Notes under the pieces: generated by a model
What the model was told of the DNA's origin: nothing
Database searches by the model: none
The model's input: only the letters and a program-made list of their open reading frames with translations
In this document: positions 24,540 through 26,432 of the stretch, piece by piece
Numbering within the stretch: the stretch's first letter is position 1
How the letters are laid out: every line of letters starts with the position of its first letter
Position numbers and translations under genes: made by a program
From: Escherichia coli
Lineage (GTDB): Bacteria > Pseudomonadota > Gammaproteobacteria > Enterobacterales > Enterobacteriaceae
Strand: one strand, 5' to 3'
Length of the DNA stretch: 64,000 bases
Assembly (NCBI RefSeq): GCF_003334305.1
Contig: NZ_QOWS01000006.1

Positions 24540-26432
24540 ATGGCTATCGAAATCAAAGTACCGGACATCGGGGCTGATGAAGTTGAAATCACCGAGATCC
24601 TGGTCAAAGTGGGCGACAAAGTTGAAGCCGAACAGTCGCTGATCACCGTAGAAGGCGACAAAGCCTCTATGGAAGTTCCGTCTCCGCAGGCGGGTATCGT
24701 TAAAGAGATCAAAGTCTCTGTTGGCGATAAAACCCAGACCGGCGCACTGATTATGATTTTCGATTCCGCCGACGGTGCAGCAGACGCTGCACCTGCTCAG
24801 GCAGAAGAGAAGAAAGAAACAGCTCCGGCAGCAGCACCAGCGGCTGCAGCGGCAAAAGACGTTAACGTTCCGGATATCGGCAGCGACGAAGTTGAAGTGA
24901 CCGAAATCCTGGTGAAAGTTGGCGATAAAGTTGAAGCTGAACAGTCGCTGATCACCGTAGAAGGCGATAAAGCTTCTATGGAAGTTCCGGCTCCGTTTGC
25001 TGGCACCGTGAAAGAGATCAAAGTGAACGTGGGTGACAAAGTGTCTACCGGCTCGCTGATTATGGTCTTCGAAGTCGCGGGTGAAGCAGGCGCGGCAGCT
25101 CCGGCGGCTAAACAGGAAGCGGCTCCGGCAGCGGCCCCTGCACCAGCGGCTGGCGTGAAAGAAGTTAACGTTCCGGATATCGGCGGTGACGAAGTTGAAG
25201 TGACCGAAGTGATGGTGAAAGTGGGCGACAAAGTTGCCGCTGAACAGTCACTGATCACCGTAGAAGGCGACAAAGCTTCTATGGAAGTTCCGGCGCCGTT
25301 TGCAGGCGTCGTGAAGGAACTGAAAGTCAACGTTGGCGATAAAGTGAAAACTGGCTCGCTGATTATGATCTTCGAAGTTGAAGGCGCAGCGCCTGCGGCA
25401 GCTCCTGCGAAACAGGAAGCGGCAGCGCCGGCTCCGGCAGCAAAAGCTGAAGCTCCGGCAGCAGCACCGGCTGCGAAAGCGGAAGGCAAATCTGAATTTG
25501 CAGAAAACGACGCTTACGTTCACGCGACTCCGCTGATCCGCCGTCTGGCACGCGAGTTTGGCGTTAACCTGGCGAAAGTGAAGGGCACTGGCCGTAAAGG
25601 TCGTATCCTGCGCGAAGACGTTCAGGCTTACGTGAAAGAAGCTATCAAACGTGCAGAAGCAGCTCCGGCGGCGACTGGCGGCGGTATCCCAGGCATGCTG
25701 CCGTGGCCGAAGGTGGACTTCAGCAAGTTTGGTGAAATCGAAGAAGTGGAACTGGGCCGTATCCAGAAAATTTCTGGTGCGAACCTGAGCCGTAACTGGG
25801 TGATGATCCCGCATGTTACTCACTTCGACAAAACCGATATCACCGAGCTGGAAGCGTTCCGTAAACAGCAGAACGAAGAAGCGGCGAAACGTAAGCTGGA
25901 TGTGAAGATCACCCCGGTTGTCTTCATCATGAAAGCCGTTGCTGCAGCTCTTGAGCAGATGCCTCGCTTCAACAGTTCGTTGTCGGAAGACGGTCAGCGT
26001 CTGACCCTGAAGAAATACATCAACATCGGTGTGGCGGTGGATACCCCGAACGGTCTGGTTGTTCCGGTATTCAAAGACGTCAACAAGAAAGGCATCATCG
26101 AGCTGTCTCGCGAGCTGATGACTATTTCTAAGAAAGCGCGTGACGGTAAGCTGACTGCGGGCGAAATGCAGGGCGGTTGCTTCACCATCTCCAGCATCGG
26201 CGGCCTGGGTACTACCCACTTCGCGCCGATTGTGAACGCGCCGGAAGTGGCTATCCTCGGCGTTTCCAAGTCCGCGATGGAGCCGGTGTGGAATGGTAAA
26301 GAGTTCGTGCCGCGTCTGATGCTGCCGATTTCTCTCTCCTTCGACCACCGCGTGATCGACGGTGCTGATGGTGCCCGTTTCATTACCATCATTAACAACA
26401 CGCTGTCTGACATTCGCCGTCTGGTGATGTAA
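24540..26432 (+). CDS. aceF: pyruvate dehydrogenase E2 dihydrolipoamide acetyltransferase (three lipoyl domains)
   Basis: 630-aa ORF with three tandem lipoyl domains (…[12 protein letters not shown]… x3) separated by Ala/Pro-rich linkers, then E3-binding and catalytic domain (DHRVIDG). Confidence 0.98.

What the first reader, a model, noticed from the sequence alone, without database searches (positions are those of the whole stretch)
24540..25500. Three ~300-nt tandem DNA repeats encoding the aceF lipoyl domains
The lipoyl domains are near-identical at nucleotide level (repeated ...GTTCCGGATATCGG...GACGAAGTTGAAGTGACCGAA...CTGATCACCGTAGAAGGCGA(C/T)AAAGC(C/T)TCTATGGAAGTTCCG...) and separated by Ala/Pro-rich linkers. 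Such repeats are substrates for recombinational deletion or duplication and are a common assembly collapse point.
Basis: partly seen in the sequence, partly recalled or inferred. Interest (0 to 1): 0.25.

Follow-up and report, generated by a model that had tools for sequence, protein, structure and literature searches.

The report
Three lipoyl-domain repeats in aceF
This is the well-known triple repeat at the start of the E. coli aceF gene, encoding the three lipoyl "swinging arm" domains of pyruvate dehydrogenase; it is ordinary, though public genomes show that the repeat occasionally loses or gains a unit.

Summary
Window 24540-25500 is the 5' third of E. coli aceF (24540-26432, 630 aa), within pdhR-aceE-aceF-lpd. 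It contains three in-frame tandem units (period 303-309 nt). Each unit encodes one Biotin_lipoyl domain with an EGDKA lipoyl-lysine motif, followed by an Ala/Pro-rich linker.

"Near-identical" is overstated. The domain cores are 76-77% (lip1 vs lip2/lip3) and 85.5% (lip2 vs lip3) identical. Only a 51-nt central block is about 96% identical, and the longest exact shared runs are 29, 26 and 23 nt. Protein identity plus codon bias alone predicts 72-77%.

The recombination claim is supported by database sequences. Of 5,426 complete E. coli genomes, 8 carry a two-domain aceF. Their junctions lie in the central block or in linker microhomology. One genome has an out-of-register 192-nt deletion, and none has four domains. 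Four-domain forms with the reciprocal hybrid domain occur in draft and metagenome assemblies. Two-domain proteins are recorded on hundreds of contigs, and sampled carriers have many different aceE backgrounds. Sequence alone cannot separate in vivo events from assembly artefacts.

The repeat has been known since 1983-85. Novelty: already known. Interest: low.

The parts
24540..26432 (+). aceF CDS (630 aa + stop): the dihydrolipoyllysine-residue acetyltransferase (E2p) of the pyruvate dehydrogenase complex
   Evidence: ORF listed. NCBIfam NF008814 scores 1101 bits. Pfam architecture. 100% identical to aceF of E. coli strain H15.
24546..24773 (+). Repeat unit 1 core: lipoyl domain 1 (aa 3-78). 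The lipoyl-lysine K41 codon is at 24660-24662.
   Evidence: Pfam PF00364 over aa 4-73, E=1.3e-21. EGDKA motif at aa 38.
24774..24854 (+). Linker 1, Ala/Pro-rich (about aa 79-105)
   Evidence: 66% Ala+Pro. Shares short similarities with linker 2 (family D2). Crossover site in strains DSM 103263 and FDAARGOS_1283.
24855..25082 (+). Repeat unit 2 core: lipoyl domain 2 (aa 106-181). The lipoyl-lysine K144 codon is at 24969-24971.
   Evidence: Pfam PF00364 over aa 107-176, E=5.4e-23. 76.8% nt identity to unit 1 and 85.5% to unit 3.
25083..25157 (+). Linker 2, Ala/Pro-rich
   Evidence: 70% Ala+Pro.
25158..25385 (+). Repeat unit 3 core: lipoyl domain 3 (aa 207-282). The lipoyl-lysine K245 codon is at 25272-25274.
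   Evidence: Pfam PF00364 over aa 207-277, E=4e-22.
25386..25517 (+). Linker 3, Ala/Pro-rich. Its first 24 nt (25386-25409) are a 12-nt tandem repeat that varies in copy number between strains.
   Evidence: TRF period 12, 2 copies. Strain MRE162 lacks one 12-nt copy, removing AAPA.
24630..24680 (+). Central near-identical block of unit 1 ([17 protein letters not shown]). The same block lies at 24939-24989 in unit 2 and 25242-25292 in unit 3. It holds the longest exact shared runs and most mapped crossovers.
   Evidence: Exact runs of 29, 26 and 23 nt start at 24630/24939, 24639/25251 and 24969/25272. Codon identity is 14/16 against 8.3 expected. Crossover intervals.
25518..25625 (+). Peripheral subunit (E3/E1) binding domain, aa 327-362. 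Not part of the repeat.
   Evidence: Pfam PF02817, E=7.5e-16.
25734..26426 (+). Catalytic acetyltransferase core domain, aa 399-629, containing the DHRVIDG motif. Not part of the repeat.
   Evidence: Pfam PF00198, E=3.4e-80. The motif is seen in the translation.

Best explanation
The region is the N-terminal third of E. coli aceF. An ancestral segment of about 300 nt, encoding one lipoyl domain plus a flexible Ala/Pro linker, is present three times in tandem and in frame. Each copy folds into a lipoyl domain whose DKA lysine (K41, K144, K245) is expected to carry lipoate. That arm moves acetyl groups between E1p, the E2p core and E3; this mechanism is established knowledge and was not tested here. 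At the DNA level the copies have diverged to 76-86% identity. Most of that identity is what protein conservation plus the strong codon bias of this operon would give. Identity beyond that expectation is concentrated in a 51-nt central block and in the lip2/lip3 pair, which suggests a more recent common origin or occasional gene conversion (inference). The short identical runs (23-29 nt) and the linker microhomologies (about 11-17 nt) allow rare unequal crossing-over or replication slippage. This removes or adds exactly one unit and leaves a hybrid domain or hybrid linker. Three domains remain the overwhelmingly dominant state.
For: Identity of the gene and its domains. Operon context pdhR-aceE-aceF-lpd. 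Repeat geometry and identities. Null model: back-translating the proteins with the operon's codon usage gives 72-77% identity, against 76-86% observed (z = 2.1, 2.7, 4.6). The excess codon identity sits in the central block for all pairs (14/16 against 8.3 expected, P about 0.002). Outside the block only lip2/lip3 shows an excess. Population survey: six synthetic recombinant junctions were searched against 5,426 complete E. coli genomes. A normal genome scores at most 619 bits and true four-domain loci score 896-918 bits. Eight genomes scored 745-918 bits, all of deletion type, and none had a duplication junction. The annotated aceF lengths fit the loss of one unit: 1590, 1593 and 1587 nt, and an intact 527-aa ORF in 01_3327. 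Crossovers map between unit-specific markers that flank the 29-nt run (01_3327) or the 23-nt run (C2, C4, Rb-50), or to linker1/linker2 microhomology (DSM 103263, FDAARGOS_1283). Four-domain alleles have the reciprocal structure: lip1-lip2-[lip3N|lip2C]-lip3 or lip1-[lip2N|lip1C]-lip2-lip3. Strain-specific substitutions are duplicated with the unit, and L003 and L004 have different crossover intervals. Two-domain proteins are recorded on 182 and 454 contigs, in a cluster of 305 distinct sequences. The 10 carrier loci sampled for each lie on many aceE backgrounds, 0-43 SNPs per 2,664 nt. Literature: the aceF sequence (Stephens et al. 1983), the 'repeating lipoyl domains' (Guest et al. 1985) and the 'tandemly repeated lipoyl domains' (Allen et al. 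1989) are cited in PMC8421416, which also reports the three domains as 73% identical in protein.
Against: Nothing contradicts the identification. The weak points concern the dynamics. Whether the two- and four-domain alleles arose in cells or in assemblers cannot be decided from assembled sequence. The [lip1N|lip2C] allele is mostly recorded on short contigs of 2-20 kb, which would fit an artefact. The codon-bias null uses aceE, the aceF 3' part and lpd as background, so it may under- or over-estimate the bias within the lipoyl domains. Lipoylation and catalytic function were not tested here.
Confidence: 0.96

Rival explanations
1. The nucleotide similarity between units is only a by-product of conserved protein sequence plus strong codon bias. 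On this view there is no DNA-level homogenisation (gene conversion) and no recent duplication.
For: The back-translation null already gives 71.5-77.1% identity, against 76.3-85.5% observed. Outside the central block, lip1/lip2 and lip1/lip3 share no more codons than expected (P = 0.25 and 0.10).
Against: Codon identity in the central block is 14/16 against 8.3 expected for every pair (P about 0.002). lip2/lip3 also exceeds expectation outside the block (35/48 against 24.4, P = 0.0007). Some related AceF sequences have almost identical second and last domains (P0025), which hints at concerted evolution.
Confidence: 0.3
2. The two- and four-domain aceF alleles in databases are mostly assembly artefacts (collapse, expansion or mis-joining at the shared block) and not real alleles.
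For: Metagenome-derived AceF sequences have a scrambled domain order (P0043: [1N|2C]-[3N|1C]-[2N|3C]) or mosaics between species (P0012, P0015, P0002, P0028, P0036). The [1N|2C] two-domain protein is recorded mostly on contigs of 2-20 kb. The junctions coincide with exact shared k-mers, which is also where assemblers mis-join.
Against: Eight cases are in assemblies labelled complete. The shared runs are only 23-29 nt, shorter than the final k-mers of most assemblers (my knowledge, not tested). Two junctions lie in imperfect linker microhomology of 11-17 nt, and an out-of-register junction uses about 5-15 nt; these look more like biological slippage. The 566-aa allele of strain 463 is recorded on 6 contigs under several accessions.
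Confidence: 0.35
3. The window itself is mis-assembled at this repeat, so the true copy number differs from three.
For: None specific.
Against: The 1,893-nt gene is 100% identical to a complete genome (strain H15) and matches full-length in 5,424 of 5,426 complete genomes. 630 aa is the canonical length in 74 of the top 120 protein clusters.
Confidence: 0.01

Closest known systems
E. coli K-12 AceF (E2p, 630 aa; sequence of Stephens et al. 1983; 'repeating lipoyl domains' of Guest et al. 1985)
   Same: [quoted passage not shown] K-12 strains match at 98.8-99.0% nucleotide identity over the full length.
   Different: Only strain-level SNPs, for example T94 here where many strains have A94.
E2 chains with other numbers of lipoyl domains. 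E. coli SucB has one (PMC2753649). A review gives one to three per E2 chain (PMC6270654).
   Same: The same lipoyl-domain fold, the same DKA lysine, flexible linkers and the same C-terminal acyltransferase family (NCBIfam cross-hits).
   Different: The copy number here is three. The units are adjacent DNA repeats that still share 23-29-nt identical runs.
Natural two-domain and four-domain aceF alleles of E. coli found here (e.g. WP_032220595.1, 529 aa; WP_001702743.1, 731 aa)
   Same: Derived from this same repeat array by loss or gain of exactly one unit, leaving a hybrid domain or hybrid linker.
   Different: The window carries the canonical three-unit allele.

Membership tests
PDH-complex dihydrolipoyllysine-residue acetyltransferase (AceF/E2p; NCBIfam NF008814, TIGR01348) | Full-length match above the curated cut-off | tested here: met
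   NF008814 scores 1101 bits (cut-off 722). TIGR01348 scores 1038 bits (cut-off 552).
PDH-complex dihydrolipoyllysine-residue acetyltransferase (AceF/E2p) | One or more N-terminal lipoyl domains with the lipoyl-lysine in a DKA motif | tested here: met
   Three PF00364 hits, E = 1e-21 to 5e-23. EGDKA at aa 38, 141 and 242.
PDH-complex dihydrolipoyllysine-residue acetyltransferase (AceF/E2p) | [quoted passage not shown] | tested here: met
   PF02817 over aa 327-362 and PF00198 over aa 399-629. The translation contains [14 protein letters not shown].
PDH-complex dihydrolipoyllysine-residue acetyltransferase (AceF/E2p) | Operon context with E1p (aceE) and E3 (lpd) under PdhR | tested here: met
   pdhR 495 bits, aceE 1646 bits and lpd 501 bits, adjacent on the same strand.
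PDH-complex dihydrolipoyllysine-residue acetyltransferase (AceF/E2p) | Actual lipoylation of the three lysines and acetyl-transfer activity | not testable with these tools
   Biochemical property. It is established for the K-12 protein in the literature cited in PMC8421416.
In-frame tandem DNA repeat that acts as a substrate for unequal recombination | Head-to-tail copies with significant nucleotide identity and a period divisible by 3 | tested here: met
   Period 303/309, 79% matches, score 985. Core identities 76-86%.
In-frame tandem DNA repeat that acts as a substrate for unequal recombination | Alleles exist that differ by exactly one unit, with hybrid units at the junction | tested here: met
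   Eight two-domain complete genomes. Four-domain alleles with the reciprocal hybrid.
In-frame tandem DNA repeat that acts as a substrate for unequal recombination | The variants arise in vivo and not in assembly | not testable with these tools
   This needs raw reads or PCR. The indirect evidence points both ways.

The most novel reading that the evidence does not exclude
Lipoyl-domain number in aceF is a real, recurrently generated polymorphism in natural E. coli: two, three or four domains, plus malformed out-of-register products. It arises by unequal crossing-over at a 23-29-nt identical block and by slippage at linker microhomologies. On this reading two-domain alleles persist in many lineages because they are nearly neutral or conditionally advantageous, so PDH 'arm number' is a naturally tunable trait and not a fixed species character.
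Probability: 0.3. Interest if true: 0.35.

Novelty: already known. Interest (0 to 1): 0.12.

Why it matters
The repeat itself is textbook. It was seen when aceF was first sequenced in 1983 and was used from 1985 to build PDH complexes with fewer or more lipoyl domains. Its practical relevance is modest. It is a place where annotation and assembly can go wrong: PGAP flags an intact 527-aa two-domain aceF as a pseudogene, and metagenome assemblies give scrambled domain orders. Rare natural alleles with two or four domains also exist. The survey adds one small quantitative point. About 0.15% of complete E. coli genomes carry a one-unit deletion and none carries a duplication, and the junctions lie exactly where the DNA identity is highest.

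Tried and rejected
(1) I tried to count copy-number variants from the coverage reported by megablast of 24540-25500 against complete genomes. This is unreliable, because off-register pieces are joined: strain 463, with a 192-nt deletion, still showed 84% coverage. I replaced it with synthetic-junction queries under a strict E-value limit.

(2) I tried MAFFT gap positions to locate the deletion breakpoints. Gap placement inside a repeat is arbitrary, so I used unit-specific marker strings instead.

(3) The ranked protein search lists four-domain forms first because extra domains add score. It therefore cannot give the relative frequencies of two- and four-domain forms. An exact-sequence look-up was used for the two-domain forms.

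(4) Literature searches for reports of natural or evolved changes in aceF lipoyl-domain copy number found none in the held library. A chemostat study mentions aceF alleles, but the passages I read do not say what kind of mutations they are.

(5) I considered the long antisense ORFs over the region (24797-25489 and 25248-26477, minus strand). I did not examine them further. No separate test was run, but the plus-strand gene is fully supported.

Full report
**1. What is at the coordinates.** The region 24540-25500 lies at the start of a 1,893-nt ORF (24540-26432, + strand, 630 aa). The protein scores 1101 bits against NCBIfam NF008814, the PDH-complex dihydrolipoyllysine-residue acetyltransferase (cut-off 722).

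Pfam finds three Biotin_lipoyl domains at aa 4-73, 107-176 and 207-277. It also finds an E3-binding domain (aa 327-362) and the 2-oxoacid dehydrogenase catalytic domain (aa 399-629). The neighbours are pdhR (20904-21701), aceE (21862-24525) and lpd (ATG at 26640, ends 28064).

The gene is 100% identical to aceF of E. coli strain H15. It matches annotated aceF over at least 80% of its length in 5,424 of 5,426 complete E. coli genomes. The window is therefore E. coli chromosome, and the gene is aceF.

**2. Check of the observation.**
- Tandem Repeats Finder reports a single array at 24561-25423: period 303, 2.8 copies, 79% matches, score 985.
- The repeat finder gives three copies spaced 309 and 303 nt apart.
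Two of them occur in units 2 and 3 only, and the long central motif occurs in all three units.
- The linkers are 66-70% Ala+Pro.
- In-register identity of the 228-nt domain cores is 76.8% (lip1/lip2), 76.3% (lip1/lip3) and 85.5% (lip2/lip3). Amino-acid identities are 78%, 74% and 87%.

"Near-identical" is true only of the 51-nt block encoding [17 protein letters not shown], at 24630-24680, 24939-24989 and 25242-25292. The longest exact shared runs are 29, 26 and 23 nt.

**3. How much of the DNA similarity is more than protein similarity.** I back-translated the three domain proteins independently, using the codon usage of aceE, the aceF 3' part and lpd. This gives 72.8%, 71.5% and 77.1% identity, against 76.8%, 76.3% and 85.5% observed (z = 2.1, 2.7, 4.6).

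Most of the nucleotide identity is therefore what a conserved protein in a strongly codon-biased operon would show. The excess is localised:
- In the central block, 14 of 16 degenerate codons are the same for every pair, against 8.3 expected (P about 0.002).
- Outside the block, only lip2/lip3 exceeds expectation: 35/48 against 24.4 (P = 0.0007).

This fits a younger lip2/lip3 relationship, or occasional gene conversion, or both. That reading is an inference. Selection on codons around the lipoyl-lysine is an untested alternative.

Simple coverage statistics were misleading, because off-register pieces get joined. I therefore built six 500-nt synthetic recombinant junctions: J12, J23 and J13 for deletions, and J21, J32 and J31 for duplications.
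- A normal three-domain genome scores at most 619 bits on any of them.
- Real four-domain loci score 896-918 bits on J32.
- I searched 5,426 complete E. coli genomes at E <= 1e-195 and again at E <= 1e-179. Both searches returned the same eight genomes, scoring 745-918 bits. All eight matched deletion junctions, and none matched a duplication junction.

The eight genomes fall into three groups:
- **Central-block crossover, [lip2N|lip3C] hybrid domain:** C2, C4, Rb-50 and VTB97379v. In C2, C4 and Rb-50 the crossover lies between a lip2-specific marker at core position 113 and a lip3-specific marker at position 146. That interval contains the 23-nt identical run. VTB97379v lacks the position-113 marker, so its interval is wider.
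- **Central-block crossover, [lip1N|lip2C] hybrid domain:** 01_3327 has its crossover inside the 29-nt run. 03_3013 matched the same J12 junction, but I did not fetch or map it.
- **Linker crossover:** DSM 103263 and FDAARGOS_1283 have lost exactly lip2 through short linker1/linker2 similarities (CACCAGCGGCTG and GCTCCGGCAGC).

The aceF lengths fit the loss of one unit: 529, 530, 528 and 527 aa. The four central-block lip2/lip3 cases differ by 23-30 SNPs in 2,310 nt of aceE, so they are not one clone.

Two further variants were seen:
- Strain 463 has an out-of-register 192-nt in-frame deletion. It joins the second VGDKV motif of lip2 to the first VGDKV motif of lip3, using about 5-15 nt of homology.
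- Strain MRE162 lacks one copy of a 12-nt linker-3 repeat.

**5. Beyond the complete genomes.** A protein search returned many AceF sequences of 727-738 aa with four EGDKA motifs, from E. coli, Salmonella and Citrobacter.
- The E. coli ones have exactly the reciprocal structures expected from unequal crossing-over. P0005, P0010, P0011 and P0014 are lip1-lip2-[lip3N|lip2C]-lip3. P0001 is lip1-[lip2N|lip1C]-lip2-lip3.
- Strain-specific substitutions are duplicated along with the unit, which points to recent, independent events.
- Two DNA loci encoding the same 731-aa protein (L003, L004) have different crossover intervals.

Exact look-up shows the two-domain proteins on 182 contigs (529 aa) and 454 contigs (527 aa), in a cluster of 305 distinct two-domain sequences. 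The 566-aa allele of strain 463 is on 6 contigs. Sampled carriers lie on many aceE backgrounds (0-43 SNPs per 2,664 nt) and have different upstream gene content.

There is also evidence for artefacts. Metagenome-derived AceF sequences have scrambled domain order (P0043) or mosaics between species (P0012, P0015, P0002, P0028, P0036). The 527-aa allele is recorded mostly on short contigs. Assembled sequence alone cannot tell real events from assembler events.

**6. Mechanism.**
- *Established knowledge, not tested here:* each lipoylated domain acts as a swinging arm between E1p, E2p and E3, and the three domains act redundantly and in random order (PMC8421416 and the references it cites: Guest 1985, Allen 1989).
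- *Inferred from junction anatomy:* one-unit loss or gain occurs by unequal homologous exchange at the 23-29-nt identical runs, and by slippage at shorter linker or intradomain microhomologies.
- *Interpretation:* the strong dominance of three domains (about 99.8% of complete genomes) fits selection for three. The title of Dave, Guest & Attwood 1995 states that lowering the lipoyl-domain content reduces growth rate and yield (reference lists seen). I did not read that paper itself.

**7. Comparison with the known, and verdict.** This is the canonical aceF repeat, described when the gene was sequenced (Stephens et al. 1983) and explicitly as "repeating"/"tandemly repeated lipoyl domains" (Guest et al. 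1985; Allen et al. 1989; all cited in PMC8421416). Every testable membership feature for AceF/E2p was met. The finding is correct and already known.

A review states one to three lipoyl domains per E2 chain (PMC6270654). The four-domain database entries would extend that range if they are real, but that is unproven. Interest is low.

Noticed in passing
window 25386-25409 (linker 3): A 12-nt tandem repeat (GCAGCGCCTGCG GCAGCTCCTGCG) varies in copy number between strains. MRE162 lacks one copy, removing AAPA. fS25a and HUM3355 also span 12 nt less. Other linker-length variants exist (629-aa and 633-aa AceF, P0093 and P0103).
   Followed up: partly
window 26433-26639 (aceF-lpd spacer); L007 3915-4238: The window has the short 207-nt aceF-lpd spacer. 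C2 and several other strains have a 324-nt spacer with an inserted segment. From memory, that segment resembles an ERIC/IRU repeat (…CCCCAGGAGCTTACATAAGTAAGTGACTGGGGTGAGG…). No repeat-family tool was run.
   Followed up: no
window 26440-26466: A G+C-rich hairpin (AGCCGGCC-CAAC-GGCCGGCT) followed by TTTTTTCT lies directly after the aceF stop codon. It looks like an intrinsic terminator between aceF and the promoter-like site at 26527-26555 upstream of lpd. The scan listed the palindromic stem on the minus strand.
   Followed up: partly
L008 2628-4211 (E. coli 01_3327, NZ_CP074961.1): RefSeq annotates this aceF as a pseudogene ('partial in the middle of a contig; missing N-terminus'). The ORF is in fact intact: 527 aa with an ATG start and two lipoyl domains. 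This looks like an annotation artefact caused by the one-unit deletion.
   Followed up: partly
proteins P0043, P0039, P0012, P0015, P0002, P0028, P0036: These AceF sequences have a permuted domain order or domains that look borrowed from other Enterobacterales. Most come from ENA metagenome assemblies; P0039 is an NCBI Citrobacter record. They are probably chimeric assemblies joined through the conserved central block.
   Followed up: partly
proteins P0025, P0026, P0033, P0034 (83-85% identical to the query): These are four-domain AceF sequences from an unnamed source. In the two inspected (P0025 and P0034) units 2 and 3 differ slightly in their linkers, so the duplication may be older, or fixed in some related species. 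The organism was not identified.
   Followed up: no
proteins P0037, P0040 (Salmonella enterica, contigs of 4.47 and 4.68 Mb): Four-domain AceF (723 and 725 aa) in chromosome-sized Salmonella contigs. P0040 has an unusual arrangement, [2N|3C]-[3N|2C], that would need more than one exchange.
   Followed up: no
protein P0041 (E. coli, 668 aa): A 38-aa internal duplication inside lip2, joined at SLIMV|TVEGDKA. It uses the two similar half-domain motifs (SLITV / SLIMV) and so resembles the out-of-register deletion in strain 463.
   Followed up: partly
NZ_CP107281.1 (E. coli JCL301, laboratory strain), hit H40: Only the last 96 nt of aceF remain, next to ampE. This looks like an engineered or large deletion that removed aroP-pdhR-aceE-aceF. 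One further complete genome had no aceF match at all.
   Followed up: no
L026, L027, L030, L032 (upstream of pdhR): Some strains carry arrays of colicin/pyocin-type DNase fragments and immunity genes, next to a T6SS Hcp-Pyocin_S-DNase fusion, directly upstream of pdhR. The window has aroP there (19023-20396) and other strains have aroP-ampE.
   Followed up: no
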